Part shown: in pieces, positions 1,522 to 25,747 of the stretch
How positions within the stretch are numbered: the first letter of the stretch is position 1
Layout: every line of letters begins with the position of its first letter
DNA from: Callorhinchus milii
Lineage: Eukaryota
NCBI RefSeq assembly: GCF_018977255.1
Contig: NW_024704743.1
Location: 20,710,001 to 20,774,000, forward strand
Direction: 5' to 3'
DNA: 64,000 bases
Made by a program: the position numbers and the translations under genes
The notes under the pieces: generated by a model
What the model saw: the letters and a program-made list of their open reading frames with translations, nothing else
What the model was told of the DNA's origin: nothing
The model's database searches: none

Positions 1522-1546
1522 NNNNNNNNNNNNNNNNNNNNNNNNN
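1522..1546. other. Assembly gap (25 N)
   Basis: Run of N directly abutting the outer end of the left arm. Confidence 1.
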
Positions 1547-4500
1547 CTTCAAAGCCCTCCACGGTCTTGCTCCCCCCTACCTCTGCAACCTCCTAACTCC
1601 CTACTATCCTGTTCACTCCCTCCGCTCAGTGGGCTCCGGCCTGCTTCACATCCCCTGCCTCGCTTGCCCCACTCTGCCCCCCACCCTCTGGAGCTCCATC
1701 TCGCAGCTTCTCCAACTCACCCCTCCTTTGCCACCTTCAAGACCCATCTCAAGACCTTCCTCTTCGACCGTGCTTTTGATCTCCCTGCTTCCCCCCTGCC
1801 CTCCACCCTCCCCACCCCGACCTCCAGCTCGGATCCGTAACTTTGTCTGTCCAGCACCTTGGGACGTCCTCCCGACTTGAAAGGCACTTTACAAATGTAA
1901 TTTTGTTGTTGTTGTTAGCCTCAAGACCACTGTCTTAACATTTAAGATGATACCAAATTTTGGAAAACTCTTAAATTTAGTCTTAATTAGAAAACCCGTT
2001 GAAGGACTGAATTTAAGAATTTTCCAAAATTCTGCACAATCACAGTGACCAATTATTCCCATAAGACTCATCATTGCGTGTTATGTTTTTCCATTAAGAT
2101 ATCAACCTTGCTGAGTTGGTAACACTTTCGGCTCGGAGTCAGAACGTTGTGGGTTCAACCCCCATATTAAGAATTCGAACTCGCATAGCCAGTGTCAGCC
2201 AATTCAGTGTCGGAGGAACAACAATACAACTTATATAGTGCTCTCCAGGCAGGGTAGCATCTCAGATCGCTTAACAGTGGCAGTGCCTGATTCCAAGCCA
2301 GGGGAGAGGGGACGTGGCCATAAGCATGGTCAAAGAGGAAAGTTTTCAGGCGGGACTCAAAAGAGGGGAGAGAGGGGGCAAGGCGGACGGATTGAGCGAG
2401 AGTGTTCCAGAATTTTGGGGCATAGTGGCTGAAAGCACGATCTTCGATGGTGGGGCAGAGGGTGCGAGGGACGAGCAGGAGGCTGGTTCCAGTTGAGCGG
2501 AGGCGCCTGGTGGTGGATTGGGGAGCGAGGAGGTCGGAGAGGTAGGGAAGTGCCAGGGAGCAATGCATTGGCAGATGAGACATTAAACTTGGGTGCTTTC
2601 AACCTAATAAAGTGGATGTTAAAGATACCATGACACTACTTGGACTATGCAATGCTTCTCTAGTGTTAATTGCTTTTGAAATAGGGAGCACCCCAGTTTT
2701 TGCTCTTCTGTACATGTTTGTGGTACACTAATTTCATTTGCCGCTAGCTTAAGTATCCTTGATCATCAATATCACTTCCTAAACCATCTCCTCAGCCCCC
2801 AGTAAATCATCAATTTAAATATGTCACCCAACACAATATTAAAGCCACCAAAGTTCTTCAATTTCCACAGAACAGGATCCTAATCACTAGTTTTGAACGA
2901 ATTCCCACCTGAGTTCTTGCATCTGCATCACAAGCTAATGCAGCCACGACTTGTGCAGCCTTACTCTGCACCACTGTGTTGGTGGACTTCAATGGTTCCA
3001 CAATGGCAGTCATAGCTCCATAATATTGGATACTACTGCGTGAAGATTCTTGAAGGGCCATATTAGTGAGAACGGTAGCAGCATTGGCAACAGCTCCATC
3101 TCCTGATTCAGTCAGAAGTTTGACCAATGGCTCCACACCGTCAGCTTCAAAAACTGCACTAGTTCAAACAAGAAATATTAAGAATAAATTGTTTCCTCTA
3201 AACTGCATTGATAATTTGATAAGGCAAATTAAAGGATGAATATTAGATGTGTCCCATGTAGCTAATTTTTTAGTAACAACTGGTTTGAAAATAATTACAT
3301 TTAAAGGACGTATTTGTTCAGCTCCAGTTTGCCATTCTTACAATCTACCATTATTATAGTCTGCCACTTGTTCAGTCAAACATCTGTTTCCTACGGTTCC
3401 TGTCAATGTGTCTACTCTGTTTTTAAACTGATTGTGAATCATTCCTATTTTTTACTACATTTTATGGAAGGAAACAGAGAGTGAATTTCCATATGGTGAA
3501 GTCCACATTCAGGGTAGGTTTTACACATTTGAAGGAATAGGCTTAATAGCTTTTTTCAATCCAGCTTCATTACATTTTTCCTGACATGTTTCTCATCACT
3601 TCTAGGCTTGATTATTTCAATAACCTTCTTATTATAACCCAACTCTATTTTTTCCACCTCTCTTTGCAACCCCCAGTCCCCTGATGTTCTGTCAGCCTGC
3701 CTGTCAGATTTCAGGGGCTGGATGAGCGCAAATTTCCTTCAACTGAACGCCGACAAGACGGAAGCCATACTCTTTGGCTCTCGTCAACGTCTCAAATCCC
3801 ACAGCTCTCACCTCCTCCACCTACCCGATCTCCCCCTAAAACTTTCCAAACCCGTATGCAACCTTGGCGTCAGGTTCGACCCCCAATTATCCTTCCTCCC
3901 CCACATCCGGTCCCTCACCAGCACTGCTTTCTTCCACCTCCGACGCATCATCCGTTTCCGCAAATACCGCTCTCCGAGCTCTCCGCTCTCCGATTACCAT
4001 CCCAAAAATGTGAAGGGCTTTGGCACAGAGACATAGTCCCATGAAGCAGACTTCACAACCCATGTGCTGACTCCTAGGTCAGTGTCAGCCAACCATGGCC
4101 AGCAATGGTAGCGTTAAGGGGTTGGAGGAACATGCCTTTGCCAGCTGAGCGAGGGATGGGCATAAAAATGGAAATCCACCACTGCATGCCCAGGAGTTTG
4201 ATACAGGCCGCAGAACTGTTTTGGACGAAGATCATGGACGTAAAGAATTTTGGCAAAATGTTTAAATTTAATCATAGTGGAACTAGAATCTTTTGAAGTA
4301 AAGAAGTGATGGGACTCAAATGTAAAAGGCAGTTAATCTGAAGGACCAGGTTTTTATGAGAAACAGATGGGTTCAGTACTAAACACATGACAGTACAGAA
4401 TCCAATCCTGGCACAGTAGCTGAATCCCAGATGACACTTCAGCTGCTACCCTTCAGCTGTTCTTGCTCAGGGTGAGCAAGTAAAAGAGATACACGCCTAG

Positions 4501-7500
4501 GCCATTGAAGAATTTTCCAGAATTCCAGAATCTCACACTTTAAGACAATAATCTTAGACCATGGGAAATTGCAGGCTAAAGGCTTCAGCTGCAAGAACAC
4601 ATGACAAGGCAAACTAATTCAAAGGAAACCTGACAAGTAGTTTATTAAACAAAAAGCACTTACGTAGCATTGGTGGGATTAGCGGTTGTTAGATTTGCTA
4701 GAGCTAGAGCTGCAGCTTCTTTAACGTCCTCATTGTCACTGACCAGCAACCGAACCAGTTGAGGAATGCCAACTGCAAATAGTTTAAAGATATGTTTTCA
4801 GCTCTACATACATACAATCTTCTATTAGCGAAATGACTGTTTCTACAAACACAATTTAACGTTTGAAAGGTTTTACAATTTATTCATACTTACGTTCTTT
4901 TTTGAAAGCCTCTTTGCTACTACTAAGTTCACACATAACAGACACAGCTTGGCAAGCAGCTATTTTGATTCCATCATTGTTGACTCCCAAAAGATTTACC
5001 AGTGCTTTTTCTACACCTTGCTCATGGAAAAATTTTCTGTTCTCACCTTATTGTATTAAAAAGAAATAGAGTTGATTATTTTTTAAAACAAACACTATTA
5101 TGAATTATTATAAGAACATAAGCAATAGGAGCAGGAATAGGCCATTTGGCCCCTCAAGCCTGCCCCGCCATTTAATAACATCATGGCTGATCTTCTAACC
5201 TAATTATTTGCTACAAGTAATTATTGAACCTAAGAATATAACTATAATAGAGAATCAGACCAGGTTTTGAGGAGAATCAATATTTGGGGGGAAAAGCAAG
5301 GAATTGAAATTAGATTAGCGAGCTCCAGTCAAAGAGCCAATGCAAGTATAGACGTGTGGGTTCAAAGCTCACATTGAGCTGACAGTTTAATGTCCCAGTG
5401 TAATATTGGGGAAATGCTTAATTGTCTGTAATGTCATCTCTTGGTGGGACTTTAAACTGAGCCCCTGTGTCTCTTTAGATGGATGTTAAAGATCCCATGG
5501 GTAGTCAAAAACTAAGGGAATTTCTGCTGGTGTCTTCACCAACAATCCTCGAGATAAATTGGTCATTCAGCTCACAACTATTTGTGGACCTTTCTGTAGG
5601 CAAGTGACTGCCATATTTGCCTACAAATACACAATCACTGCCTTAGCAGCAATTAATTATGCATTACATTGAGTCATTTTGGCATTTTGCCATATCAAAT
5701 GTAAGGATATTATTATCTTACTATTGATTATCAAGTCCAGATGGATGCTCCAATGCAGTGTTGAGGATTGAGTTACATTGTTGGAGGTGCTGTATTTTGA
5801 ATGAGATGTTAAATCGAGGTATTGTCTGCCTGTTAAGGTGGACATTAAAGATCCCATAGCACTAGAAAAGAGTTTCTTCCAGTCTCCTGGACAACAATTC
5901 CCCAAACACAACAACACCAACAACAAACTACAAGTGGTTACTCACTTCATGGCTGTTTGTGGGATATTGGTGTGTGCAAATGAGGTGAGTAAACAACTTA
6001 CTCAAGAGTATTACTGGCCAGGACGCAGAGAGTGAATTTGCTGTCACAACCTGTTGCTGCTGCATTTGTCTAGAAAAACAGCTCCTATATTTGGTATAGC
6101 TGTAAAATATTTTGTGTCATTTTGATGTTATAGGTGCAATATTAAATGCTATTATTATTAGAAAATGACAAGCTGTAGAAAGTGTTAATTGTTCCAATTT
6201 TCAAAGCAATGCATCTTAAAAGTAACAAGAAATAAAAATTTGACCTACAGTTACGTGCAGATGCTGTAATGGCTTTGGCCGCCCGCTTCTGTGCCTCTGG
6301 CAGAGTGGATGTAGTTACGAATGTCAGAAACTTTTCTAGGCCTCCTGTTTCGCGGATAACCTGCATAGTTTCTACATCTTCCAGACAGTTTGCTAGTACA
6401 GTCAGTGCTTCTACATGAAGGTCAGTAAAATCCTGAGGAGAGAATAATAATCTGAGGAAGAATCGCTTTAGACATAAGAGACAGACATTAAATGAGTACT
6501 AAGTACTCAGAAAAAAAATTACAAATCTGTTCTAAGTGTGTTTCAAAACAAAAACCTAAATAGTGTATATCACCAAACAGCATCATCATACAAATGATAT
6601 GGGGGAACCATAAATATTTTCAAGTATTAATCCACAATCCCAATAGTATTTTTACAGTAGTTTTGTCAGTAATCTTATTTTTGGAATATTTACTGTTTAA
6701 CCCGCATTTTCTGCATAGAATTTAAGATAACAGATTGCAGCAGGTTGATTAAAATAAATTTAAGTCAATTAGAATTTAGATTTCACTTAAACATTAGTGA
6801 GATCAGGAGGTGCGAATAAAAGAGATTGGTAGTGTTCAAAATATCTGGATGAATGTTGTCCTCTAAGGAAGAGTAATAATAATAATAATAATAATCCTTG
6901 CATTTGATATAGCGCTTTTCACGTCGGGAGGACGTCCCAAAGCGCTTCACAGAACACACTGTAAAGTGAATTGACTGTATATTTGTGGGCGAACGCGGCA
7001 GCCAATTGCGCACAGCAATGTCCCACAAACAGTCGTAGATTGAAAATGACCAATTTAATTATTTTTTTTTTTTTTGGAGGGATTATTATTAGGCGTGTGG
7101 AGTAAGGAAACTTGCCCAAGGTTTCGCCCTGCCTGGAATTGAACTCAGGTCTCTCACTTGCAAAGCGAGTGCTCTAACCACTGAGCTACAGGACTCCACG
7201 TAGCGAGTAGATGTATTTTAATGTGAATAAATGTAAGGTTATGCTCACTGAAACAGGATACATAAAAATTGCACAGGGTGAATGAATGTCCATTAGAAAA
7301 AGAAAGTGATTGGTGTTCATGCCAGTTCTACTAATCAATAGAAAGCAGTTATAATCACATATTGAAGTGTACGTATCAATCGTATTTGACTGCAAGTTTA
7401 AACATTATTTAACCTTTTGCAGATCATTGGTGAGGTCATGTTTGAAATTGAAAGGATTACTTTTCCACACCGTAATGCACATGTGGAATAGATTCTCAGC

Positions 7501-10500
7501 TAACTCAGTCTACTCTTTACTGATTTGTACCTTTAAGAAAGATCTAAATAAACATCTAGTAACGAATGAGATTGAGGGTTCTAAGGATAAAATCTTATTA
7601 AAATAATTGAATGATCTCAACATGATTGCTCTAAAATCTGGCCTTGAAAAATACAACAGATCCCATATGTTCAAAAGATTGATTTTGTTAAAGAGAACTG
7701 AGTTCTGTTGTTTTCCAGTGCAATCTTCATTCTCACAAAAATCAAGTCATTTATTGTTGCATAAACATATCATTTACAGTAATTGCCTGCATTTATTTAT
7801 TACCGGTGTTTCAAGAACTTGCAAGATGCTTTCAAGACCTTTATTCTGACGCAACTGAATTCTGCAATCTGGATCAATGACAATGGGTGTTAGGGTTTGC
7901 AGGGCTAACTGCTGTATAACAGGATATTCAGATTTCAGTAATTCCAGAATTGGAGGAACGCCATTCAATTCGCAAATAGCAGCTCGATTCTGAAAGTCCT
8001 AGAAAACACAGGGAAAATAGTCAAAACAATCTCTGTGATTTGTTTCAGTGTTGAGTGTACTTCTTTTTAAAAAAACTCAACACTGAAACATTTTTTTTTA
8101 AAAAAGGTACTGAATTCCAGATACAGACAGTAAACCTAAGTTAAGTAATTATACACCATATACTGTATGTGTGTGTATATATATAACATACATATGCATT
8201 ACTATTAAAGTTATTTTAAAGTCAATTACAAGAAGTATTTTTCAAGGCTTCTCAAATCTTAATGGATAACTTTACTGCCCAATGTTAGCAACAACAACCA
8301 CAACAATTTGTATTTATATAGCGCCCTTCATGCAGAGTAGCTTTTCTAGCAGTAAACCTACAAACCAGATGGCCACAAAGTTGATTGTCTTGACTGTGTT
8401 CAGTCAACTAGGGAGCAGTTAAGATGCTACAATTGGTCTTGGCATCCCTGAGCCAGGGAGGGAGTGGATGGTACAAAGTGAATTTGTGTGGACATCCTGG
8501 ATCAGTGGTGATAATAATTGTTGCGCATTATCACATCTTCTAGACGTCCCAAAGCGCTTCTCAGAATATACTGTAAAGTGAATTGACTGTATATTTGTGG
8601 GCGAAACACGGCAGCCAATTGCGAACAGCAGTGTCCCACAAACATTGGTGATAGCAGTAAAGGAAGATTGCTCTCCATTGAAAATGTTGCATCCTGGTGA
8701 TGAAGGGGTGGGTGTACTAAATATTACAAATATTCTCTTTCCAGTATTGACTTAGAATCCTAGATCCACTGTGGTATTTCTGAGTACAAGGTCCTTGCAC
8801 ATTGGGTTGAAAATGCATTCTTCAGAAGAACAATAGTACTTCAAACCTTGCGACAAAGAACATCTTCCAGAACCCCACATACGTCCTGCTGACCTTTATA
8901 CTGCTATTTACCTGATGAACTCTTTTACAACCATTGCCATCTCCCCCCACCCCCAGCAAATGTAAAGGTTATATTTACGGAATTGGTTGGAAGTATGAGA
9001 AATATACTGATGATTATACTTCATTATTGTGTAGTGCACAATTTTATGTTCATTCTGCATTAAGCTTCATTAAGTAATGTACAACAATACCAATTTGAAC
9101 CTGCTTGTTTTTAAATGCTGCTTTTTCAAATATCTATTTAATTTCCTAGTTAATAAATGCACTCTATCTCATCAACACAATCCAACCACCTATCTCTATG
9201 TTCAGATTTTATTTCCCAAATTGCCTTAATTTTTAATTGATTTTCTTAAATGTGTGCCCTCTCATTATCAATGGAAATGATCTATTAATATTTACCCTAC
9301 TGTAATCATTCCAAACTCCACGCAATATTATTATTATTAGCCCTCTTTGTAATCTCATGACAAATGGTTTGGTCAAAATTTAGTTTAGTTGATCACCTCT
9401 TATTTTGCAATCAGCAACTTGAAACTTTTTTTTAAGGTTCTCTTATCCCTTATAAACCATGAAATGTAACTTTTTTTATTATTGTTGGAAAATAAGAGTG
9501 ATTCTCTAGCTGAAGGTATTTTACTAAATTTGGGCATATTATTCTCTGTTGTTTGTTTGGTAAGTTTACTAACCTTAGAGTTTGTTTATCATAGAGATAT
9601 ACTATAAGCTCATAGCACCACTCTAAAATCAGATCCTTCACTTATGAAGGCTAACAAACTTATCAAAAATCAGAGACTTGTCACTACAGATCTCGATTAT
9701 AAACAGAGAAAAGGAAATACCACCTTAACTAAATTTGAAATAGATTCAACAGAATTCTTTAAGACATCAGGATCAGAGCTTGACAGAAGGCGGATGAGTG
9801 GTTCGAGTCCACCATGCTCAAAAATTTCCACTTTGCTGGTGTAGTCAACAGAAATGGAAGCTAGGCAGAGAGTAGCAAGTTCATGGACAATCACATCCTC
9901 TGCAAGCAAAACGAAACAGACAATAAAATATTTCTTATTAATTATTCTGAAAGTTGTCATCTTTCAATAATTTTGATTCATGTTTGTGTGTCTTTTCAAA
10001 AAGAAGGATATCTGTCTAGGCATGAGATTGATTACACTTAGCCTACGCTGAGAAAATTAAATACTGTACTTCAAGGACACATTGAAATATGTAGGGTTTT
10101 CTGTCAAGAATAGCCAAATGGGAACAAATTGAGACAACACAAAAATGGATAAATATTCTGGATTTTTCTTGATTACTTTTGGGGATTAGGGTTAGTTATA
10201 CAACTGCTTTCTCAAGAGATTGGATGAGTAGAATGAGTCAATGAAATTAATAATTAGAGATTGTTTCTGGATTTGATGGGACAAATGATTACTCCACAGT
10301 TTTCTATGTTCATAACGGAGATCAACCCTGAAACTCATCTCAACTATTCAGTTACAGTTGGGAAATTCTGCCAAGGACAGAGGCAAGGAAATCCTCTTGG
10401 CTGATGACACCCTAGAATGTCTATTTCAGTCTATTCTGCATAAAGCTAAGGGATGTAAGGCTTCATAGACAAGCTCTGCAAATTAAAATTAAAAATATTT

Positions 10501-10738
10501 GCCCTCAACTACAGTAACTACATTTTACAGTAATTACTGGAGGGCTTTAATAAGTTTGGATGACTTGATAAGGTGCTATATAAAATGCAACGAGTATTAT
10601 TAATGATCCAGAATTACCTTCTGGTCCTAGACATGCAATAATTGATGTTAGAAATCCACTTTCTTCAAAACTTTTCGTACTTCAACTGAAAAGAAAAACA
10701 GAGAAAAATAGCTGAGCTCACTAATTGGAAAAATGTCT
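1547..10738. repeat. Left arm (~9.19 kb) of giant inverted duplication
   Basis: Reverse complement of 12457-21652. Mirrored ORFs have a constant coordinate sum of ~23195-23199 (e.g. 2858..3136- vs 20061..20339+; 9697..9960- vs 13236..13499+). Confidence 0.98.
2909..10685 (-). pseudogene. ARMC3: Partial inverted copy of ARMC3 (7 exons: 10685-10618, 9899-9724, 7998-7804, 6432-6249, 5046-4894, 4772-4664, 3158-2909); pseudogene or assembly duplicate
   Basis: Mirror of the + strand exons with the same AG/GT sites. The first exon is 68 nt vs 69 nt (1-nt loss in a T run: GGATTTCT vs GGATTTTCT), giving a frameshift. Truncated by the gap. Confidence 0.85.
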
Positions 10739-11190
10739 ATTTGGGGGATATTTGTTGGGCAGGACACTGGGAGAGAGAAACACCCTTCTCTTTTTGAATC
10801 GTGCCAAGGTTCGATTCCCGGGAGGGTCGGGGCAAAACCTAAGGCAAGTTTCCTTACTCCACACACACACAACATTGTTTATCGAGCAGTGCGTAGGAAC
10901 CCAGTTGTTAGTCAATTGGTGGATGGTTTTTCTGATGGTAATAATCCCTTCAAAAAATAATAAAAATTAAAAAAAAGTAGTAATGTGGTCACTGAATCCA
11001 TGAATGTTTGTGGGACTTTGCCGTGCGCAATTGGCTGCCACGTTTCACCCACAAAATACACAGTCAATCCACTTTACAGTACATCCTGCGAAGCGCTTTG
11101 AGACGTCTCAAAGACGTGATACGGCGCTGTATCGAACGCAAGAATTGTTATTATGGGAATCTTTAATGTCCACCTGAACAGGCAGACAGG
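10739..11190. mobile_element. DeuSINE-like fragment (-) interrupted by a 5'-truncated tRNA SINE (+, ~10808-11153)
   Basis: caggacactggg...gaatcgtgcca | SINE | tgggaatctttaatgtccacctgaacaggcagac rejoins as the rc of the Deu-domain AAAGATCCCATGGCAC...GTGTCCTG. Confidence 0.75.
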
Positions 11191-11274
11191 GGTGGGAGGG
11201 GGAAGAAAGAGGTTGGAAAGTGGAATAATTTTGTTAATTTTAAATACAGTACATTATTTTTATTATTATTATTA

Positions 11275-11450
11275 CTCCCACCCACCCCTTCCATCCCACC
11301 TCTCCCCTTCCCCATCCACCCAACCCTCTCCATCCACCCAACCCTCTCCCCATCCATCCACCCAACCCTCTCCCCATCCCCTCCCCACCCACCATCCCCA
11401 ACCACATAACCCCACCACCCCTCCACTTAACCCCTCCCCCTCCCCACCTC
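11275..11450. repeat. C-rich low-complexity tract (CCATCCACCCAACCCTCTC-like units)
   Basis: Direct reading. Confidence 0.9.
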
Positions 11451-11577
11451 CGTGAGTCACGTGGCAGATGCCGTCGCTGCTTCCTGGAGTGATGACGTGT
11501 GTACGCGGTGGGTTGTTGTGGCGTTGCCTGGTAACGGGCGGCCGGGGCCTGGGAGCCGCTGACTGACTCGGGTAAGT
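11450..11577 (+). promoter_or_regulatory. Putative ARMC3 promoter / non-coding first exon with splice donor
   Basis: Locally CpG-rich. TGAGTCA overlapping GTCACGTGG (11453-11464), TGACGT (11493), RFX X-box GTTGCCTGGTAAC (11523-11535), consensus donor CGG|GTAAGT at 11571/11572. Confidence 0.6.
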
Positions 11578-11669
11578 TTCAGTCAAACACATTCCCGGTT
11601 TACCTTCAACTTAACTTGCAATTTGGTTCTCTTTTTTGGTTTGTATTTAGTTCTTCCCTCGGCCTGGAC

Positions 11670-12456
11670 ACCCAGCCCAGCCCCCCCACCCCCCCAGCCC
11701 AGCCCCCCCCTCCATCCCCAGCCTCCCCCCCATCCCCCCCAGCCTCCCCCCATCCCCAGCCCAGCCCCCCCACCCCCCAGCCCCCCCCCATCCCCAGCCC
11801 AGCCCCCCCCCATCCCCAGCCCCCCCACCCCACATCCCCAGCCCAGCCCCCCCCCATCCCCAGCCCCCCCCCATCCCCAGCCCCCCCCACCCCCCCCATC
11901 CCCAGCCCCCCCATCCCCAGCCCAGCCCCCCACCCCCAGCCCCCCCCATCCCCAGCCCCCCCATCCCAGCCCCCATCCCCAGCCCCCCCCCCATCCCAGC
12001 CCAGCCCCCCATCCCCAGCCCCCCACCCCCCCATCCCCAGCCCCCCCACCCCCCCACCCCACCCCATCCCCAGCCCAGCCCCCCCACCATCCCCAGCCCA
12101 GCCCCCCCCCATCCCAGCCCAGCCCCCCCCCATCCCCAGCCCCCCCCATCCCAGCCCCCCCCACGCCCAGCCCCCCCACCCCCCCCCATCCCCAGCCCAG
12201 CCCCCCCCCCAGCCCCCCCATCCCCAGCCCCCCCCATCCCCAGCCCCCACCCCCCCCCACCCCAGCCCAGCCCCCCCATCCCCCCCACCCAGCCAGCCCC
12301 CCCCCATCCCAGCCCAGCCCCCCAACCCCAGCCCCCCCCAGCCCAGCCCCCACCATCCCCAGCCCAGCCCCCCGACCCCCCACTCCAACCCATGCCCCCA
12401 CCCCAGCCCCCCACCTCAACCCCAGCCCAGCCCCCCACCCTACATCCCCAGCCCCC
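11670..12456. repeat. ~790-bp C-rich degenerate tandem repeat (CCCCAG / CCCCAT / CCCAGCCCAG units)
   Basis: Direct reading. Explains the Pro-rich and Gly-rich ORFs in all six frames. Confidence 0.95.
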
Positions 12457-12509
12457 AGACATTTTTCCAATTAGTGAGCTCAGCTATTTTTCTCTGTTTT
12501 TCTTTTCAG

Positions 12510-12578
12510 TTGAAGTACGAAAAGTTTTGAAGAAAGTGGATTTTCTAACATCAATTATTGCATGTCTAGGACCAGAAG
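12510..12578 (+). CDS. ARMC3: ARMC3 coding exon (~human exon 5), [23 protein letters not shown]
   Basis: ttttcag| ... |gtaatt; 69 nt; resembles NDVKKLLRELDVMNSVIAQLAPE of mammalian ARMC3. Confidence 0.88.
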
Positions 12579-13296
12579 GTAATTCTGGATCATTAATAAT
12601 ACTCGTTGCATTTTATATAGCACCTTATCAAGTCATCCAAACTTATTAAAGCCCTCCAGTAATTACTGTAAAATGTAGTTACTGTAGTTGAGGGCAAATA
12701 TTTTTAATTTTAATTTGCAGAGCTTGTCTATGAAGCCTTACATCCCTTAGCTTTATGCAGAATAGACTGAAATAGACATTCTAGGGTGTCATCAGCCAAG
12801 AGGATTTCCTTGCCTCTGTCCTTGGCAGAATTTCCCAACTGTAACTGAATAGTTGAGATGAGTTTCAGGGTTGATCTCCGTTATGAACATAGAAAACTGT
12901 GGAGTAATCATTTGTCCCATCAAATCCAGAAACAATCTCTAATTATTAATTTCATTGACTCATTCTACTCATCCAATCTCTTGAGAAAGCAGTTGTATAA
13001 CTAACCCTAATCCCCAAAAGTAATCAAGAAAAATCCAGAATATTTATCCATTTTTGTGTTGTCTCAATTTGTTCCCATTTGGCTATTCTTGACAGAAAAC
13101 CCTACATATTTCAATGTGTCCTTGAAGTACAGTATTTAATTTTCTCAGCGTAGGCTAAGTGTAATCAATCTCATGCCTAGACAGATATCCTTCTTTTTGA
13201 AAAGACACACAAACATGAATCAAAATTATTGAAAGATGACAACTTTCAGAATAATTAATAAGAAATATTTTATTGTCTGTTTCGTTTTGCTTGCAG

Positions 13297-13472
13297 AGGA
13301 TGTGATTGTCCATGAACTTGCTACTCTCTGCCTAGCTTCCATTTCTGTTGACTACACCAGCAAAGTGGAAATTTTTGAGCATGGTGGACTCGAACCACTC
13401 ATCCGCCTTCTGTCAAGCTCTGATCCTGATGTCTTAAAGAATTCTGTTGAATCTATTTCAAATTTAGTTAAG
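13297..13472 (+). CDS. ARMC3: ARMC3 exon, EDVIVHELATLCLAS...GGLEPLIRLLSSSDPDVLKNSVESISNLVK
   Basis: ttgcag| ... |gtggta; 176 nt; armadillo repeat. Confidence 0.95.
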
Positions 13473-15197
13473 GTGGTATTTCCTTTTCTCTGTTTATAAT
13501 CGAGATCTGTAGTGACAAGTCTCTGATTTTTGATAAGTTTGTTAGCCTTCATAAGTGAAGGATCTGATTTTAGAGTGGTGCTATGAGCTTATAGTATATC
13601 TCTATGATAAACAAACTCTAAGGTTAGTAAACTTACCAAACAAACAACAGAGAATAATATGCCCAAATTTAGTAAAATACCTTCAGCTAGAGAATCACTC
13701 TTATTTTCCAACAATAATAAAAAAAAGTTACATTTCATGGTTTATAAGGGATAAGAGAACCTTAAAAAAAAGTTTCAAGTTGCTGATTGCAAAATAAGAG
13801 GTGATCAACTAAACTAAATTTTGACCAAACCATTTGTCATGAGATTACAAAGAGGGCTAATAATAATAATATTGCGTGGAGTTTGGAATGATTACAGTAG
13901 GGTAAATATTAATAGATCATTTCCATTGATAATGAGAGGGCACACATTTAAGAAAATCAATTAAAAATTAAGGCAATTTGGGAAATAAAATCTGAACATA
14001 GAGATAGGTGGTTGGATTGTGTTGATGAGATAGAGTGCATTTATTAACTAGGAAATTAAATAGATATTTGAAAAAGCAGCATTTAAAAACAAGCAGGTTC
14101 AAATTGTATTGTTGTACATTACTTAATGAAGCTTAATGCAGAATGAACATAAAATTGTGCACTACACAATAATGAAGTATAATCATCAGTATATTTCTCA
14201 TACTTCCAACCAATTCCGTAAATATAACCTTTACATTTGCTGGGGGTGGGGGGAGATGGCAATGGTTGTAAAAGAGTTCATCAGGTAAATAGCAGTATAA
14301 AGGTCAGCAGGACGTATGTGGGGTTCTGGAAGATGTTCTTTGTCGCAAGGTTTGAAGTACTATTGTTCTTCTGAAGAATGCATTTTCAACCCAATGTGCA
14401 AGGACCTTGTACTCAGAAATACCACAGTGGATCTAGGATTCTAAGTCAATACTGGAAAGAGAATATTTGTAATATTTAGTACACCCACCCCTTCATCACC
14501 AGGATGCAACATTTTCAATGGAGAGCAATCTTCCTTTACTGCTATCACCAATGTTTGTGGGACACTGCTGTTCGCAATTGGCTGCCGTGTTTCGCCCACA
14601 AATATACAGTCAATTCACTTTACAGTATATTCTGAGAAGCGCTTTGGGACGTCTAGAAGATGTGATAATGCGCAACAATTATTATCACCACTGATCCAGG
14701 ATGTCCACACAAATTCACTTTGTACCATCCACTCCCTCCCTGGCTCAGGGATGCCAAGACCAATTGTAGCATCTTAACTGCTCCCTAGTTGACTGAACAC
14801 AGTCAAGACAATCAACTTTGTGGCCATCTGGTTTGTAGGTTTACTGCTAGAAAAGCTACTCTGCATGAAGGGCGCTATATAAATACAAATTGTTGTGGTT
14901 GTTGTTGCTAACATTGGGCAGTAAAGTTATCCATTAAGATTTGAGAAGCCTTGAAAAATACTTCTTGTAATTGACTTTAAAATAACTTTAATAGTAATGC
15001 ATATGTATGTTATATATATACACACACATACAGTATATGGTGTATAATTACTTAACTTAGGTTTACTGTCTGTATCTGGAATTCAGTACCTTTTTTAAAA
15101 AAAAATGTTTCAGTGTTGAGTTTTTTTAAAAAGAAGTACACTCAACACTGAAACAAATCACAGAGATTGTTTTGACTATTTTCCCTGTGTTTTCTAG

Positions 15198-15392
15198 GAC
15201 TTTCAGAATCGAGCTGCTATTTGCGAATTGAATGGCGTTCCTCCAATTCTGGAATTACTGAAATCTGAATATCCTGTTATACAGCAGTTAGCCCTGCAAA
15301 CCCTAACACCCATTGTCATTGATCCAGATTGCAGAATTCAGTTGCGTCAGAATAAAGGTCTTGAAAGCATCTTGCAAGTTCTTGAAACACCG
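15198..15392 (+). CDS. ARMC3: ARMC3 exon, DFQNRAAICELNGVPPILELLKSEYPVIQQLAL...
   Basis: ttctag| ... |gtaata; 195 nt. Confidence 0.95.
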
Positions 15393-15998
15393 GTAATAAA
15401 TAAATGCAGGCAATTACTGTAAATGATATGTTTATGCAACAATAAATGACTTGATTTTTGTGAGAATGAAGATTGCACTGGAAAACAACAGAACTCAGTT
15501 CTCTTTAACAAAATCAATCTTTTGAACATATGGGATCTGTTGTATTTTTCAAGGCCAGATTTTAGAGCAATCATGTTGAGATCATTCAATTATTTTAATA
15601 AGATTTTATCCTTAGAACCCTCAATCTCATTCGTTACTAGATGTTTATTTAGATCTTTCTTAAAGGTACAAATCAGTAAAGAGTAGACTGAGTTAGCTGA
15701 GAATCTATTCCACATGTGCATTACGGTGTGGAAAAGTAATCCTTTCAATTTCAAACATGACCTCACCAATGATCTGCAAAAGGTTAAATAATGTTTAAAC
15801 TTGCAGTCAAATACGATTGATACGTACACTTCAATATGTGATTATAACTGCTTTCTATTGATTAGTAGAACTGGCATGAACACCAATCACTTTCTTTTTC
15901 TAATGGACATTCATTCACCCTGTGCAATTTTTATGTATCCTGTTTCAGTGAGCATAACCTTACATTTATTCACATTAAAATACATCTACTCGCTACGT

Positions 15999-16322
15999 GG
16001 AGTCCTGTAGCTCAGTGGTTAGAGCACTCGCTTTGCAAGTGAGAGACCTGAGTTCAATTCCAGGCAGGGCGAAACCTTGGGCAAGTTTCCTTACTCCACA
16101 CGCCTAATAATAATCCCTCCNAAAAAAAAAACAATAATTAAATTGGTCATTTTCAATCTACGACTGTTTGTGGGACATTGCTGTGCGCAATTGGCTGCCG
16201 CGTTCGCCCACAAATATACAGTCAATTCACTTTACAGTGTGTTCTGTGAAGCGCTTTGGGACGTCCTCCCGACGTGAAAAGCGCTATATCAAATGCAAGG
16301 ATTATTATTATTATTATTATTA
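15999..16322 (+). mobile_element. Full-length young tRNA(Ala)-derived SINE (mirror copy 6875-7198, -)
   Basis: A box TAGCTCAGTGG, TTTGCAA anticodon-like loop, B box GAGTTCAATTCC, L2-like 3' tail, (TTA)n end. Confidence 0.93.
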
Positions 16323-16763
16323 CTCTTCCTTAGAGGACAACATTCATCCAGATATTTTGAACACTACCAATCTCTTTTATTCGCACCTCCTGATCTCACT
16401 AATGTTTAAGTGAAATCTAAATTCTAATTGACTTAAATTTATTTTAATCAACCTGCTGCAATCTGTTATCTTAAATTCTATGCAGAAAATGCGGGTTAAA
16501 CAGTAAATATTCCAAAAATAAGATTACTGACAAAACTACTGTAAAAATACTATTGGGATTGTGGATTAATACTTGAAAATATTTATGGTTCCCCCATATC
16601 ATTTGTATGATGATGCTGTTTGGTGATATACACTATTTAGGTTTTTGTTTTGAAACACACTTAGAACAGATTTGTAATTTTTTTTCTGAGTACTTAGTAC
16701 TCATTTAATGTCTGTCTCTTATGTCTAAAGCGATTCTTCCTCAGATTATTATTCTCTCCTCAG

Positions 16764-16947
16764 GATTTTACTGACCTTCATGTAGAAGCACTGACTGTAC
16801 TAGCAAACTGTCTGGAAGATGTAGAAACTATGCAGGTTATCCGCGAAACAGGAGGCCTAGAAAAGTTTCTGACATTCGTAACTACATCCACTCTGCCAGA
16901 GGCACAGAAGCGGGCGGCCAAAGCCATTACAGCATCTGCACGTAACT
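16764..16947 (+). CDS. ARMC3: ARMC3 exon, DFTDLHVEALTVLANCLEDVETMQVIRETGGLEK...
   Basis: cctcag| ... |gtaggt; 184 nt. Confidence 0.95.
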
Positions 16948-17049
16948 GTAGGTCAAATTTTTATTTCTTGTTACTTTTAAGATGCATTGCTTTGAAAATT
17001 GGAACAATTAACACTTTCTACAGCTTGTCATTTTCTAATAATAATAGCA

Positions 17050-17850
17050 TTTAATATTGCACCTATAACATCAAAATGACACAAAATATTTTACAGCTAT
17101 ACCAAATATAGGAGCTGTTTTTCTAGACAAATGCAGCAGCAACAGGTTGTGACAGCAAATTCACTCTCTGCGTCCTGGCCAGTAATACTCTTGAGTAAGT
17201 TGTTTACTCACCTCATTTGCACACACCAATATCCCACAAACAGCCATGAAGTGAGTAACCACTTGTAGTTTGTTGTTGGTGTTGTTGTGTTTGGGGAATT
17301 GTTGTCCAGGAGACTGGAAGAAACTCTTTTCTAGTGCTATGGGATCTTTAATGTCCACCTTAACAGGCAGACAATACCTCGATTTAACATCTCATTCAAA
17401 ATACAGCACCTCCAACAATGTAACTCAATCCTCAACATTGCATTGGAGCATCCATCTGGACTTGATAATCAATAGTAAGATAATAATATCCTTACATTTG
17501 ATATGGCAAAATGCCAAAATGACTCAATGTAATGCATAATTAATTGCTGCTAAGGGCAGTGATTGTGTATTTGTAGGCAAATATGGCAGTCACTTGCCTA
17601 CAGAAAGGTCCCACAAATAGTTGTGAGCTGAATGACCAATTTATCTCGAGGATTGTTGGTGAAGACACCAGCAGAAATTCCCTTAGTTTTTGACTACCCA
17701 TGGGATCTTTAACATCCATCTAAAGAGACACAGGGGCTCAGTTTAAAGTCCCACCAAGAGATGACATTACAGACAATTAAGCATTTCCCCAATATTACAC
17801 TGGGACATTAAACTGTCAGCTCAATGTGAGCTTTGAACCCACACGTCTAT
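17050..17850 (-). mobile_element. Two tandem degenerate DeuSINE-like elements (mirror ~5350-6150, +)
   Basis: Deu-domain signature GATGTTAAAGATCCCATGG / GACATTAAAGATCCCATAGCAC. Confidence 0.7.
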
Positions 17851-18151
17851 ACTTGCATTGGCTCTTTGACTGGAGCTCGCTAATCTAATTTCAATTCCTT
17901 GCTTTTCCCCCCAAATATTGATTCTCCTCAAAACCTGGTCTGATTCTCTATTATAGTTATATTCTTAGGTTCAATAATTACTTGTAGCAAATAATTAGGT
18001 TAGAAGATCAGCCATGATGTTATTAAATGGCGGGGCAGGCTTGAGGGGCCAAATGGCCTATTCCTGCTCCTATTGCTTATGTTCTTATAATAATTCATAA
18101 TAGTGTTTGTTTTAAAAAATAATCAACTCTATTTCTTTTTAATACAATAAG

Positions 18152-18304
18152 GTGAGAACAGAAAATTTTTCCATGAGCAAGGTGTAGAAAAAGCACTGGT
18201 AAATCTTTTGGGAGTCAACAATGATGGAATCAAAATAGCTGCTTGCCAAGCTGTGTCTGTTATGTGTGAACTTAGTAGTAGCAAAGAGGCTTTCAAAAAA
18301 GAAC
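18152..18304 (+). CDS. ARMC3: ARMC3 exon, ENRKFFHEQGVEKALVNLLGVNNDGIKIAACQAVS...
   Basis: ataag| ... |gtaagt; 153 nt; phase-compatible. Confidence 0.93.
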
Positions 18305-18425
18305 GTAAGTATGAATAAATTGTAAAACCTTTCAAACGTTAAATTGTGTTTGTAGAAACAGTCATTTCGCTAATAGAAGATTGTATGTATGTAGAGCTGA
18401 AAACATATCTTTAAACTATTTGCAG

Positions 18426-18534
18426 TTGGCATTCCTCAACTGGTTCGGTTGCTGGTCAGTGACAATGAGGACGTTAAAGAAGCTGCAGCTCTAGCTCTAG
18501 CAAATCTAACAACCGCTAATCCCACCAATGCTAC
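18426..18534 (+). CDS. ARMC3: ARMC3 exon, GIPQLVRLLVSDNEDVKEAAALALANLTTANPTNA
   Basis: ttgcag| ... |gtaagt; 109 nt. Confidence 0.93.
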
Positions 18535-19199
18535 GTAAGTGCTTTTTGTTTAATAAACTACTTGTCAGGTTTCCTTTGAATTAGTTTGCCTTGTCATGTG
18601 TTCTTGCAGCTGAAGCCTTTAGCCTGCAATTTCCCATGGTCTAAGATTATTGTCTTAAAGTGTGAGATTCTGGAATTCTGGAAAATTCTTCAATGGCCTA
18701 GGCGTGTATCTCTTTTACTTGCTCACCCTGAGCAAGAACAGCTGAAGGGTAGCAGCTGAAGTGTCATCTGGGATTCAGCTACTGTGCCAGGATTGGATTC
18801 TGTACTGTCATGTGTTTAGTACTGAACCCATCTGTTTCTCATAAAAACCTGGTCCTTCAGATTAACTGCCTTTTACATTTGAGTCCCATCACTTCTTTAC
18901 TTCAAAAGATTCTAGTTCCACTATGATTAAATTTAAACATTTTGCCAAAATTCTTTACGGCCATGATCTTCGTCCAAAACAGTTCTGCGGCCTGTATCAA
19001 ACTCCTGGGCATGCAGTGGTGGATTTCCATTTTTATGCCCATCCCTCGCTCAGCTGGCAAAGGCATGTTCCCCAACCCCTTAACGCTACCATTGCTGGCC
19101 ATGGTTGGCTGACACTGACCTAGGAGTCAGCACATGGGTTGTGAAGTCTGCTTCATGGGACTATGTCTCTGTGCCAAAGCCCTTCACATTTTTGGGATG

Positions 19200-19560
19200 G
19201 TAATCGGAGAGCGGAGAGCTCGGAGAGCGGTATTTGCGGAAACGGATGATGCGTCGGAGGTGGAAGAAAGCAGTGCTGGTGAGGGACCGGATGTGGGGGA
19301 GGAAGGATAATTGGGGGTCGAACCTGACGCCAAGGTTGCATACGGGTTTGGAAAGTTTTAGGGGGAGATCGGGTAGGTGGAGGAGGTGAGAGCTGTGGGA
19401 TTTGAGACGTTGACGAGAGCCAAAGAGTATGGCTTCCGTCTTGTCGGCGTTCAGTTGAAGGAAATTTGCGCTCATCCAGCCCCTGAAATCTGACAGGCAG
19501 GCTGACAGAACATCAGGGGACTGGGGGTTGCAAAGAGAGGTGGAAAAAATAGAGTTGGGT
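19200..19560 (-). mobile_element. L2-clade LINE ORF2 fragment (mirror ~3640-4000, +)
   Basis: WMSANFLQLNADKTEAILFG...NLGVRFDPQLSF RT-thumb region. Confidence 0.9.
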
Positions 19561-20038
19561 TATAATAAGAAGGTTATTGAAATAATCAAGCCTAGAAGTG
19601 ATGAGAAACATGTCAGGAAAAATGTAATGAAGCTGGATTGAAAAAAGCTATTAAGCCTATTCCTTCAAATGTGTAAAACCTACCCTGAATGTGGACTTCA
19701 CCATATGGAAATTCACTCTCTGTTTCCTTCCATAAAATGTAGTAAAAAATAGGAATGATTCACAATCAGTTTAAAAACAGAGTAGACACATTGACAGGAA
19801 CCGTAGGAAACAGATGTTTGACTGAACAAGTGGCAGACTATAATAATGGTAGATTGTAAGAATGGCAAACTGGAGCTGAACAAATACGTCCTTTAAATGT
19901 AATTATTTTCAAACCAGTTGTTACTAAAAAATTAGCTACATGGGACACATCTAATATTCATCCTTTAATTTGCCTTATCAAATTATCAATGCAGTTTAGA
20001 GGAAACAATTTATTCTTAATATTTCTTGTTTGAACTAG

Positions 20039-20288
20039 TGCAGTTTTTGAAGCTGACGGTGTGGAGCCATTGGTCAAACTTCTGACTGAATCAGGAGATG
20101 GAGCTGTTGCCAATGCTGCTACCGTTCTCACTAATATGGCCCTTCAAGAATCTTCACGCAGTAGTATCCAATATTATGGAGCTATGACTGCCATTGTGGA
20201 ACCATTGAAGTCCACCAACACAGTGGTGCAGAGTAAGGCTGCACAAGTCGTGGCTGCATTAGCTTGTGATGCAGATGCAAGAACTCAG
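20039..20288 (+). CDS. ARMC3: ARMC3 exon, AVFEADGVEPLVKLL...GAVANAATVLTNMA...ACDADARTQ
   Basis: aactag| ... |gtggga; 250 nt. Confidence 0.95.
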
Positions 20289-20636
20289 GTGGGAATTCGT
20301 TCAAAACTAGTGATTAGGATCCTGTTCTGTGGAAATTGAAGAACTTTGGTGGCTTTAATATTGTGTTGGGTGACATATTTAAATTGATGATTTACTGGGG
20401 GCTGAGGAGATGGTTTAGGAAGTGATATTGATGATCAAGGATACTTAAGCTAGCGGCAAATGAAATTAGTGTACCACAAACATGTACAGAAGAGCAAAAA
20501 CTGGGGTGCTCCCTATTTGAAAAGCAATTAACACTAGAGAAGCATTGCATAGTCCAAGTAGTGTCATGGAATCTTTAACATCCACTTTATTAGGTTGAAA
20601 GCACCCAAGTTTAATGTCTCATCTGCCAATGCATTG

Positions 20637-20980
20637 CTCCCTGGCACTTCCCTACCTCTCCGACCTCCTCGCTCCCCAATCCACCACCAGGCGCCTCCGC
20701 TCAACTGGAACCAGCCTCCTGCTCGTCCCTCGCACCCTCTGCCCCACCATCGAAGATCGTGCTTTCAGCCACTATGCCCCAAAATTCTGGAACACTCTCG
20801 CTCAATCCGTCCGCCTTGCCCCCTCTCTCCCCTCTTTTGAGTCCCGCCTGAAAACTTTCCTCTTTGACCATGCTTATGGCCACGTCCCCTCTCCCCCTGG
20901 CTTGGAATCAGGCACTGCCACTGTTAAGCGATCTGAGATGCTACCCTGCCTGGAGAGCACTATATAAGTTGTATTGTTGT
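20637..20980 (+). mobile_element. L2 LINE 3' end (mirror 2217-2560, -) inserted in a DeuSINE-like element
   Basis: YLSDLL...RAFSHYAPKFWN...FESRLKTFLF; (TTG)n tail. Confidence 0.88.
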
Positions 20981-21279
20981 TCCTCCGACACTGAATTGGC
21001 TGACACTGGCTATGCGAGTTCGAATCTTAATATGGGGGTTGAACCCACAACGTTCTGACTCCGAGCCGAAAGTGTTACCAACTCAGCAAGGTTGATATCT
21101 TAATGGAAAAACATAACACGCAATGATGAGTCTTATGGGAATAATTGGTCACTGTGATTGTGCAGAATTTTGGAAAATTCTTAAATTCAGTCCTTCAACG
21201 GGTTTTCTAATTAAGACTAAATTTAAGAGTTTTCCAAAATTTGGTATCATCTTAAATGTTAAGACAGTGGTCTTGAGGC

Positions 21280-21990
21280 TAACAACAACAACAAAATTAC
21301 ATTTGTAAAGTGCCTTTCAAGTCGGGAGGACGTCCCAAGGTGCTGGACAGACAAAGTTACGGATCCGAGCTGGAGGTCGGGGTGGGGGAGGGTGGAGGGC
21401 AGGGGGGGAAGCAGGGAGATCAAAAGCACGGTCGAAGAGGAAGGTCTTGAGATGGGTCTTGAAGGTGGCAAAGGAGGGGTGAGTTGGAGAAGCTGCGAGA
21501 TGGAGCTCCAGAGGGTGGGGGGCAGAGTGGGGCAAGCGAGGCAGGGGATGTGAAGCAGGCCGGAGCCCACTGAGCGGAGGGAGTGAACAGGATAGTAGGG
21601 AGTTAGGAGGTTGCAGAGGTAGGGGGGAGCAAGACCGTGGAGGGCTTTGAAGGTGAGGACCAGGATCTTGTACTGGATTCTCTGTGTGATAGGAAGCCAG
21701 TAGAGTTGGGCAAGGATGGGGGTGATAGGGTCATGGAGCCTAGTGCGGGAGAGGACACGGGCTGCCGAGTTCTGGATGATCTGCAGCTTGTGCAGGAAGG
21801 AATTGGGGAGGCCGACGAGCAATGAGTTTGCATAGTCGAGGCTTGATGTAATGAAAGCATATTTGAGGGTTTCAGTGGCCTGCGGTATGAAATGGTGGCG
21901 GAGCTGGGCGATGTTGCGGAAGTGGGGGAAGGCAGAGCGGGTCATGGCGCAGATATGGGGTAGAAAGGGGATTTGGGGCTTGAGGTGCAC
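21280..21990 (-). mobile_element. L2 LINE 3' fragment (part mirrored at 1547-1916)
   Basis: AFITSSLDYANSLL...LQIIQNSAARVL...WLPITQRIQYK; (TTG)n tail. Confidence 0.92.
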
Positions 21991-22063
21991 TCTTGTTCTG
22001 TAATCCTAGTGGCAATTAGATATACGAAACTGAGGACATCTCTAACTGAGTTTTTTTTCACAG

Positions 22064-22200
22064 TTGCGAACTTCTGGTGGATTGGAGCCACTTGTAAAAT
22101 TGCTACATTCTAATCATGATGAAGTGAGGCGCAATGCTTGCTGGGCTGTGCTTGTCTGTGGAAAGGATGAGCCCACAGCAATTGAGCTTTGCAAATTGGG
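22064..22200 (+). CDS. ARMC3: ARMC3 exon, LRTSGGLEPLVKLLHSNHDEVRRNACWAVLVC...ELCKLG
   Basis: tcacag| ... |gtacgt; 137 nt. Confidence 0.95.
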
Positions 22201-23179
22201 GTACGTATAGGGAACATTAACGCATCATTGCTTTTCAGCTCCTTTCATGTATTGAAGTAAATTGTCCTAACAATCCTATTAACATGGATAGGAACATTGT
22301 TTAAAAATGTTTTAGATTACAATACAAAGTACTTTCCAAGCAGTCTGTATCACTTTTTCAACTTCTTAATTGCAGATGGCTATTTAGACAGAAAACTAGT
22401 ATATAGAAGTTTACTTTCTTTCAGGTGACTTTTTATTGTGTAGGTGATTTTTACCTAACGCATGTAGGAATTTAATTTTAATATGAATGCTAAACATTAA
22501 TAATAATGACTTTAGACAGATAGAATACTTTTTTCTTATGTTTATACAAAGCCAGTTTTCTGTTACTGAAAAGTGACTCATTTGTATTAGATTGATTGCA
22601 ATGTGTTTCAATTGGGAAAAGTAACATGATCATCTGGACAGAAAACCATTGTTTCCAAGTACCACTAACACAACGTGGATTGTAATGTCACAGAAAAGGA
22701 ATTACATTGTTGACTGCTGGACTCACCAAGCAGTCAACTACTCAAACTGTAGAGTTTGCAGTAGTGTGCAGCTCGTTTCCTTTCCTGTACCAGGCTCCAT
22801 GAGCCCATCCCACTACCGCAATCCTCACTTGGCTCCTTTGGCTCTCCATCCCTCAGCAGATTGAGTTCAAGATCCTTGTACTCACCTTTAATCCCTCCAA
22901 GGTCCCTACTACCTCTTCAAACCCTACTCACCCAGCCACTCCCTTTGCTCAGCGAGCACAGGCCTGCTTCATGTACCCCATACCTTTGACAAGCAGGCAT
23001 TCAACCATTCTGTGCCCAGTCCCTGGAACTCCATCCCCAAGTCCTTCCAAATCTCTCCTTCCTCCCCCATCTCATTCAAGGTCCGTTTCCAGATCTATTG
23101 ATTTGACCGCGGTTTTAGTCATTTTTCCCCCCTCTCACCTCTCTTGGATCGCATCCTCAGCTCCAGTGCCCAACCAGTA

Positions 23180-25578: not shown

Positions 25579-25747
25579 TGCTTTGGAAATCCTGCAAGAA
25601 ATAAACCTGTCCACAAGTCGCCAAAACAGCTTTAGCGAGGCAGCTGTGAACAAGCTGCTCGACAGTAATCCAACTCTCAAATACGCTCTGACTGGCTATT
25701 TGTCATCCAATAATATTATCACAGATGGATTCTATGATCTTGGTCAG
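25579..25747 (+). CDS. ARMC3: ARMC3 exon, ALEILQEINLSTSRQNSFSEAAVNKLL...DGFYDLGQ
   Basis: ctatag| ... |gtagag; 169 nt. Confidence 0.95.

What the first reader, a model, noticed from the sequence alone, without database searches (positions are those of the whole stretch)
1547..21652. 20-kb palindrome: ~9.2-kb near-identical arms duplicating seven ARMC3 exons head-to-head
Seen: 1547-10738 is the reverse complement of 12457-21652 around a 1718-bp spacer. By eye I found at least 4 substitutions (2627/20570, 2678/20519, 4238/18960, 5758/17438) and several 1-nt indels, many in homopolymers. Knowledge: large high-identity palindromes carrying testis genes occur on sex chromosomes and are kept alike by arm-to-arm gene conversion, and ARMC3 is a sperm/motile-cilia gene. 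Inference: this is either a real recent fold-back duplication or a mis-assembly (second haplotype or fold-back long read). The abutting 25-N gap and homopolymer indels favour an artefact; the substitutions fit either haplotypes or true divergence.
Basis: partly seen in the sequence, partly recalled or inferred. Interest (0 to 1): 0.8.

Follow-up and report, generated by a model that had tools for sequence, protein, structure and literature searches.

The report
False ARMC3 palindrome in elephant shark
A 9-kb piece of the elephant shark's sperm-tail gene ARMC3 appears twice in mirror image in this genome sequence, but other elephant sharks seem to carry it once and with different neighbouring DNA, so it is likely an assembly error that also dropped the start of the gene, not a real palindrome.

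Summary
The palindrome is in the sequence: arms of 9.2 kb, 99.83% identical, seven ARMC3 exons each, beside a 25-N gap; the species is Callorhinchus milii. It is likely not in the animal. In 3 of 4 public runs one unbranched contig crosses the arm's inner end into 179 letters that fit neither the left nor the right junction; the fourth run has no cover there. Contig depth in arms is 1.03-1.13 times the flank. Two arm differences are SNPs segregating among the four samples; all 6 resolved indels are one-base losses in the window. New: both arms start at one base (10737/12458), and the exons for ARMC3 residues 1-98, present in another elephant shark model, are missing from the whole window, so the right junction is a mis-join too. 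Best reading: false inverted duplication plus deletion at a hard-to-sequence promoter (0.88). A real rearrangement private to the sequenced animal is not excluded (0.10), as its raw reads were not available. The scan noted a similar kilobase mirror duplication elsewhere in this genome (e1-9202929, unchecked).

The parts
1522..1546 (.). 25-N assembly gap abutting the outer end of the left arm
1547..10737 (-). Left arm: inverted copy of 12458-21652; starts inside a LINE-like repeat at the gap; no promoter, start codon or 3' exons of its own; likely false duplicate
2909..3158 (-). Left copy of the ARMC3 exon for about residues 394-476 of P0123
   Evidence: mirror of 20039-20288
4664..4772 (-). 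Left copy of the ARMC3 exon for about residues 357-393
4894..5046 (-). Left copy of the ARMC3 exon for about residues 307-356
6249..6432 (-). Left copy of the ARMC3 exon for about residues 245-306
   Evidence: mirror of 16764-16947
7804..7998 (-). Left copy of the ARMC3 exon for residues 180-244
9724..9899 (-). Left copy of the ARMC3 exon for residues 121-179
10618..10685 (-). Left copy of the 69-nt ARMC3 exon (residues 99-120), one base short (68 nt), hence frameshifted; contigs of 3 of 3 covering runs have the full-length form
10737..10738 (.). Left junction: arm joined bluntly to the middle of an old SINE; not bridged by any listed contig
10738..12457 (+). Spacer, 1720 bp: cut SINE, second SINE, C-rich tract, putative ARMC3 promoter and first non-coding exon, C-rich array
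11440..11573 (+). Putative promoter and non-coding first exon: CpG-rich (o/e 0.86 over 11440-11670 against 0.38 in the arm), X-box-like motif at 11523-11535 (consensus recalled; one site in 64 kb, read on both strands, 0.63 matches expected in shuffles, so weak alone), GG|GTAAGT donor at 11572
   Evidence: assignment to ARMC3 is inference
11671..12456 (+). 786-bp C-rich degenerate tandem array (CCCAG-based); one continuous G-quadruplex motif on the minus strand
12457..12458 (.). Right junction: array joined directly to the intron 52 bp before the 69-nt exon; the exons for ARMC3 residues 1-98 are missing here; not bridged by any listed contig
12458..21652 (+). Right arm: the true single-copy ARMC3 segment, exons at 12510-12578, 13297-13472, 15198-15392, 16764-16947, 18152-18304, 18426-18534, 20039-20288
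22058..34774 (+). Remaining ARMC3 coding exons (residues 477-853 of P0123), single copy, continuing from the right arm

Best explanation
The mirror-image copy is likely an assembly error: one single-copy stretch of the elephant shark ARMC3 gene was written twice, once backwards, on either side of a short promoter piece, and the exons for residues 1-98 were likely lost in the same event. Shown: the two copies begin at the same base; contigs of three other samples leave the window's sequence at that base on both sides; residues 1-98 are not encoded in the window. Inferred: that base was a free end (end of a long read or contig) in a poorly covered region made of SINEs and a 786-bp G-quadruplex-type array; the free end was used twice, as in a fold-back read or a second copy of a contig end, and was joined bluntly to both ends of the promoter piece. 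Inferred: later polishing shared the reads of the one real locus between the two copies, which would leave opposite alleles of heterozygous SNPs in the two arms and a few uncorrected one-base losses in both. Which program made the joins was not determined.
For: (1), table 8: in X2, X3 and X4 a single contig (1800, 2312, 2304 letters) covers the inner end of the arm, stops matching at 10737 on the left and at 12458 on the right, and has 179 further letters that were laid on neither side (3 of 4 runs; X1 has no contig there). (2): no 7-residue word of P0123 residues 1-98 occurs in any frame of the window, residues 99-476 occur twice, 477-853 once; 115 of 120 homologues carry this N-terminal part; C. 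milii models P0123 and P0002 carry it. (3): length-weighted contig depth arm/flank 1.08, 1.03, 1.13, 1.13, not 2. (4): of 5 arm substitutions 3 were resolved; 4238/18960 (three runs right-arm letter, one run left-arm letter) and 2627/20570 (two and two, partly deduced from difference counts) segregate as SNPs. (5) Of 10 indels 6 were resolved and all 6 are one-base losses in the window copy (left 5585, 9470, 10651; right 21026, 19072, 14107). (6) 25-N gap at the outer end and an N inside the right arm; the left junction cuts a SINE in mid-body with no microhomology beyond one base. (7) Gaps beside the copies and haploid-level depth are the published marks of false duplications (PMC9516828, passages).
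Against: No raw reads, and nothing known to be from the assembled animal, could be laid: all evidence is from contigs of four samples of one study. The tool warns that contig depth is no copy number and that contigs show presence, not absence; only 3 flank contigs per run were listed against 7-8 arm contigs, and table 8 was cut. The 179 letters were not printed, so their nature is unknown, and a noisy version of the C-rich array is not strictly excluded. The arms are closer to each other (0.054% substitutions) than to the four samples (0.10-0.26%) and share two letters (3238, 7382) that none of the four shows, which also fits a recent real duplication. A plain fold-back read would not by itself explain the promoter piece in the middle or the deletion; a foldback survey found almost none in three PacBio HiFi or isoform samples (PMC12338684, passages; older noisy PacBio reads not among them). 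7 of 16 arm differences stayed unresolved.
Confidence: 0.88

Rival explanations
1. A real complex rearrangement private to the sequenced animal (or rare in the population): replication stalled at the G-rich array and switched template, giving an inverted duplication plus loss of the first coding exons on one chromosome, an ARMC3 null allele carried beside an intact one.
For: Both junctions share one break base, as one event would; a G-quadruplex motif abuts the right junction; arms are closer to each other than to other samples. Unchecked notes of this scan report other private-looking inversions in this genome (e1-9905939, e1-9202929). Absence from four other samples does not test a private allele.
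Against: A one-event duplication should give identical arms, yet they carry opposite alleles of two population SNPs, and one-base losses on both sides (polishing with reads of the other homologue could blur this). No microhomology at either junction beyond one base. The outer end is an assembly gap in mid-repeat, not a breakpoint.
Confidence: 0.1
2. A real, maintained palindrome of the sex-chromosome type, fixed in the species or limited to one sex, kept alike by arm-to-arm gene conversion.
For: Arm length over 8 kb and identity over 99% meet the filter used for primate X palindromes (PMC8327919, passage); ARMC3 is tied to sperm tails and motile cilia (PMC4770540 and PMC12859697, titles and abstract starts in listing). 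The sex of the four samples is unknown.
Against: Three of three informative runs show another sequence at the arm's inner end and about single-copy depth. Neither arm holds a whole gene and, as written, no copy can encode full ARMC3. The candidate chimaera X is a 500-kb scaffold related to human chromosome 1 and chicken 25, the shark X to human 12 and chicken 34 (PMC12952989, section 20), while P0001 lies on a 125.6-Mb sequence; ARMC3 on human 10p is recalled.
Confidence: 0.02

Closest known systems
False duplications in genome assemblies, heterotype and homotype (PMC9516828; passages read)
   Same: Near-identical copy next to the original, gap beside it, partial exon set duplicated, arms split alleles of heterozygous sites, residual read errors.
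   Different: Their test uses reads of the assembled animal, which were not available here; the word 'inverted' does not occur in that paper's main text; here the copy is inverted and comes with a deletion at the same base.
Foldback artefact reads in long-read data (PMC12338684, passages; palindromic reads after amplification, 10.1101/173872, search listing only)
   Same: A segment followed by its reverse complement turning at one position, sometimes with about 2 kb of other sequence between; arm length of read scale.
   Different: The sequence between is here a real neighbouring promoter piece; no read was seen; that survey found foldbacks mainly in Nanopore data.
Gap-flank extension with long reads (PBJelly; PMC3504050, passages)
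   Same: A run of 25 N is that tool's minimum gap; it extends contig ends into gaps and reports 'overfilled' gaps tied to inversions and assembly mistakes.
   Different: That leftover gaps are written as exactly 25 N is recalled, not read; nothing shows that this tool was used on this sequence.
Mammalian X and Y palindromes with testis genes (PMC8327919, passages)
   Same: Arm over 8 kb, identity over 99%, short spacer, sperm-related gene.
   Different: Those carry whole genes, are present in the population and are conserved; this has partial exons, a frameshift, single-copy depth and no support in other samples.

Membership tests
Sex-chromosome-type palindrome | Arms over 8 kb and over 99% identical, inverted | tested here: met
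   9.2 kb, 99.83% in the assembled sequence; threshold from PMC8327919
Sex-chromosome-type palindrome | Present in individuals: two copies per chromosome, both junctions in reads | tested here: not met
   Depth ratio 1.03-1.13; 3 of 3 informative runs leave the window's sequence at both junctions; contigs only
Sex-chromosome-type palindrome | Whole, expressible gene copies in the arms | tested here: not met
   Residues 99-476 of 853 only; left copy frameshifted at 10651
Sex-chromosome-type palindrome | Located on a sex chromosome | tested here: inconclusive
   No sexed data; literature places chondrichthyan X sequences on small units of other homology; P0001 on a 125.6-Mb sequence
Sex-chromosome-type palindrome | Arm-to-arm gene conversion | not testable with these tools
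   Needs phased arms from several animals or species
False duplication (assembly error) | Gap beside or between the copies | tested here: met
   25 N at 1522-1546
False duplication (assembly error) | Half read depth per copy in the assembled animal | not testable with these tools
   No raw reads offered; proxy from four other runs gives single-copy depth
False duplication (assembly error) | Differences between copies are alleles or read errors | tested here: met
   2 of 3 resolved substitutions segregate as SNPs, the third is seen only in the right arm; 6 of 6 resolved indels are one-base losses; 7 of 16 differences unresolved
False duplication (assembly error) | Junctions not supported by independent sequence | tested here: met
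   Contigs in X2, X3, X4 run on 179 letters into other sequence at 10737/12458
Replication-based complex rearrangement (FoSTeS/MMBIR; features recalled) | Microhomology or templated insertion at the junctions | tested here: not met
   At most one shared base at each inner junction; the 179 natural upstream letters were not seen, so homology there is untested
Replication-based complex rearrangement (FoSTeS/MMBIR; features recalled) | Junctions present in raw reads of the carrier | not testable with these tools
   Only contigs of other samples could be laid

The most novel reading that the evidence does not exclude
The sequenced animal really carries a fold-back allele of ARMC3: a fork stalled at a 786-bp G-quadruplex array, the chromosome end at 12458 was copied back for at least 9 kb, the gene's own promoter was captured as the spacer and the first coding exons were lost, a cancer-like fold-back inversion with templated insertion in the germ line of a cartilaginous fish, possibly one of several such mirror duplications in this animal.
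Probability: 0.1. Interest if true: 0.4.

Novelty: not a real feature. Interest (0 to 1): 0.1.

Why it matters
Mostly as a warning. The elephant shark genome is a standard reference for early vertebrate evolution; here it likely shows a false partial gene duplication and hides the first 98 codons of ARMC3. The public model P0001 lacks these residues and begins with 15 residues read from intron sequence at 12858-12902, so the defect seems to have reached annotation, while P0123 is full length. Kilobase mirror duplications beside short N gaps in this genome should be checked against reads before being read as biology. If the junctions were real in the animal, it would be a rare germ-line fold-back allele of a sperm-tail gene, of moderate interest.

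Tried and rejected
No whole genome is held for this window, so the missing exons could not be sought elsewhere in the assembly and other mirror duplications could not be counted. X1 has no contig over 10633-10737, so it says nothing on the junctions. The outer ends (1547, 21652) lie in a high-copy LINE-like repeat and could not be tested; the left arm may extend into the gap. Binned depths are swamped by repeats and were not used; loose-end and joint tables were cut and did not show the junction rows. The spacer's natural left neighbour was not seen. Uncorrected one-base losses are 6 in about 15 kb of covered arm and none shared by all runs in about 5 kb of covered flank; with about 2 expected this is too few to count. 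No second C. milii ARMC3-like protein was among the 120 of 229 hits listed or the 4 cluster members; weak, as a partial copy may be unannotated. A search for 'ARMC3' with 'Callorhinchus' gave one paper, on Armc8 (listing only); searches for a written statement on 25-N gaps and on missed-adapter palindromes in PacBio assemblies gave no direct passage. Supplements were not consulted. Considered and rejected: a transposon with long inverted repeats (the arms are host introns and exons, no element ends); chance similarity.

Full report
Observation. Self-BLAST of the window finds one long inverted repeat, 1547-10738 against 21652-12457, 99.826% over 9199 columns, with a 25-N gap at 1522-1546 and a single N at 16121. 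A global alignment lists 16 differences: 5 substitutions, the N, and 10 one-base indels. An 83-residue exon from the right arm is 99% identical to Callorhinchus milii ARMC3 and 77% or less to the other listed hits, which names gene and species. Seven coding exons lie in each arm.

Gene anatomy. The full-length C. milii model P0123 (853 aa) maps as follows: residues 1-98 nowhere in the window in six frames (no shared 7-residue word), 99-476 twice, 477-853 once. Exon-sized pieces of the N-terminus from P0002 and P0004 gave only background scores, while control pieces were found. 115 of 120 homologues have this N-terminal part. The spacer holds what looks like the gene's 5' end: a CpG-rich stretch with an X-box-like motif (consensus recalled; weak alone) and a GG|GTAAGT donor, then a 786-bp C-rich array that is one continuous G-quadruplex motif on the minus strand. 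So the window reads promoter, array, and then directly the exon for residue 99: the first coding exons are missing at or near 12457/12458. The left copy has no promoter, no start, no 3' exons and a one-base loss in its first exon. As written, neither copy can encode full ARMC3. The public model P0001 lacks the same N-terminus and starts with 15 residues read from intron sequence at 12858-12902.

Junctions. Four genome-sized public runs of one study, four samples, hold 0.74-0.78 of the sampled words; only their contigs could be laid. On the left arm, X2, X3 and X4 each have one contig that matches up to 10737 and has 179 more letters that do not fit 10738 onward. On the right arm with 57 bases of the array included, the same contigs match from 12458 and the same 179 letters do not fit the array side either. 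X1 has no contig there. So 3 of 3 informative runs show a third, unbranched neighbour at this base. Both window copies begin at exactly this base; the one extra shared letter fits the spacer on both sides. The left junction cuts an old SINE in mid-body: the copy at 33686-33918 has about 190 more bases before the same motif. Caveats: contigs drop rare branches, the tables were cut, and the 179 letters were not printed.

Copy number. Using the contigs listed in table 8 (7-8 per run in the arm, 3 per run in the flank 21939-30138), length-weighted depth is 8.56/7.95, 7.91/7.67, 8.28/7.32 and 9.85/8.69, ratios 1.03-1.13; ranges overlap (5.1-13.9 against 5.1-11.1). A fixed palindrome would give about 2. 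The tool warns that contig depth is no copy number, so this is supporting, not decisive.

Arm differences. Nine of 16 could be resolved. 4238/18960: X1, X2, X4 have the right-arm letter, X3 the left. 2627/20570: X3, X4 right; X1, X2 left (deduced from the contigs' difference counts). 2678/20519: all four left. Indels: at 5585, 9470 and 10651 the samples have the longer, right-arm length (4 of 4, 4 of 4, 3 of 3 covering); at 21026, 19072 and 14107 they have the longer, left-arm length (2 of 2, 4 of 4, 3 of 3); at 19072 the right arm matches neither of two alleles. All 6 resolved indels are thus losses in the window, spread over both arms, the pattern expected (own knowledge) of long-read consensus that short reads could not polish. 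Against my reading: arm-to-arm substitutions (0.054%) are fewer than window-to-sample differences (0.10-0.26%), and both arms share letters at 3238 and 7382 that none of the four has; shared polishing explains this, but so would a recent real duplication.

Mechanism. Most likely (0.88) the assembly had a free end at 12458, in a region of SINEs and a G-rich array that is hard to sequence; this end was used twice, forward and reversed, and was joined bluntly to both ends of a 1.7-kb promoter piece, dropping the DNA between array and 12458. The two copies were then polished with reads of the one real locus. Shown: shared break base, other neighbour in three runs, missing exons, allele and error pattern, gap. 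Inferred: the free end, the fold-back or doubled contig end, the polishing. Not determined: the step or program responsible; a simple fold-back read does not explain the promoter piece in the middle. Rival (0.10): the same anatomy made in vivo by template switching and private to the sequenced animal; samples of other animals cannot exclude it. Rival (0.02): a maintained or sex-limited palindrome.

Comparison with what is known. It works like the false duplications described by PMC9516828 (passages read: gaps between copies, haploid-level depth, alleles or read errors as differences, false exon gains) and resembles foldback reads, which may hold about 2 kb between the segments (PMC12338684, passages; almost absent from the three PacBio samples there, none of the older noisy kind). 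PBJelly counts 25 or more N as a gap and links overfilled gaps to inversions and assembly mistakes (PMC3504050, passages); its use here is not shown. It meets the size and identity filter for primate X palindromes (PMC8327919, passages) but fails presence in individuals and whole-gene content. Candidate chondrichthyan X sequences have other homology (PMC12952989, section 20 read). ARMC3's link to sperm tails and motile cilia rests on titles and abstract starts (PMC4770540, PMC12859697). One search for ARMC3 with Callorhinchus found no paper on this locus. An unchecked note of this scan describes another mirror duplication with arms of 7.7 kb or more in this genome, also unsupported in other samples (e1-9202929); it is a lead, not evidence.

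Verdict. Real in the file, likely not in the fish. Interest 0.1; useful as an annotation warning, since the likely error also removes the first 98 codons of ARMC3.

Noticed in passing
window 6874-7202 (mirror 15994-16322): Young SINE insertion that is polymorphic: X3's 1883-letter contig joins 6862 to 7205 with 8 letters between, while contigs of X1, X2 and X4 include the element's end. Copies at 120-352 and 1254-1521 are about 99% identical to it and summed depth exceeds a million, suggesting a recently active family.
   Followed up: partly
P0001; window 12858-12902: The public C. milii ARMC3 model of 749 aa lacks the N-terminus and starts with 15 residues translated from intron sequence; P0123 (853 aa) is complete.
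   Followed up: yes
P0002; window 13297-13472: The UniRef model P0002 has part of the N-terminal exons missing from the window but lacks the exon for residues 121-179 and starts with a proline-rich stretch not matched here.
   Followed up: no
window 3238/19959 and 7382/15814: Both arms carry letters that none of the four runs shows: private alleles of the assembled animal or shared consensus errors.
   Followed up: no
window 49150-49260 (+): Exon whose translation resembles methionine sulfoxide reductase B2 (name recalled, not searched), the usual downstream neighbour of ARMC3 as recalled.
   Followed up: no
window 34375-34498: 60-bp tandem duplication (2.1 copies, 89%) in the short intron before the last ARMC3 coding exon.
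   Followed up: no
window 43580-44100: Degenerate CA/GA-rich tandem array of about 520 bp.
   Followed up: no
window 46025-46101 and 55940-56080: Short self-complementary stretches, 77 bp at 93.5% and 141 bp at 79%.
   Followed up: no
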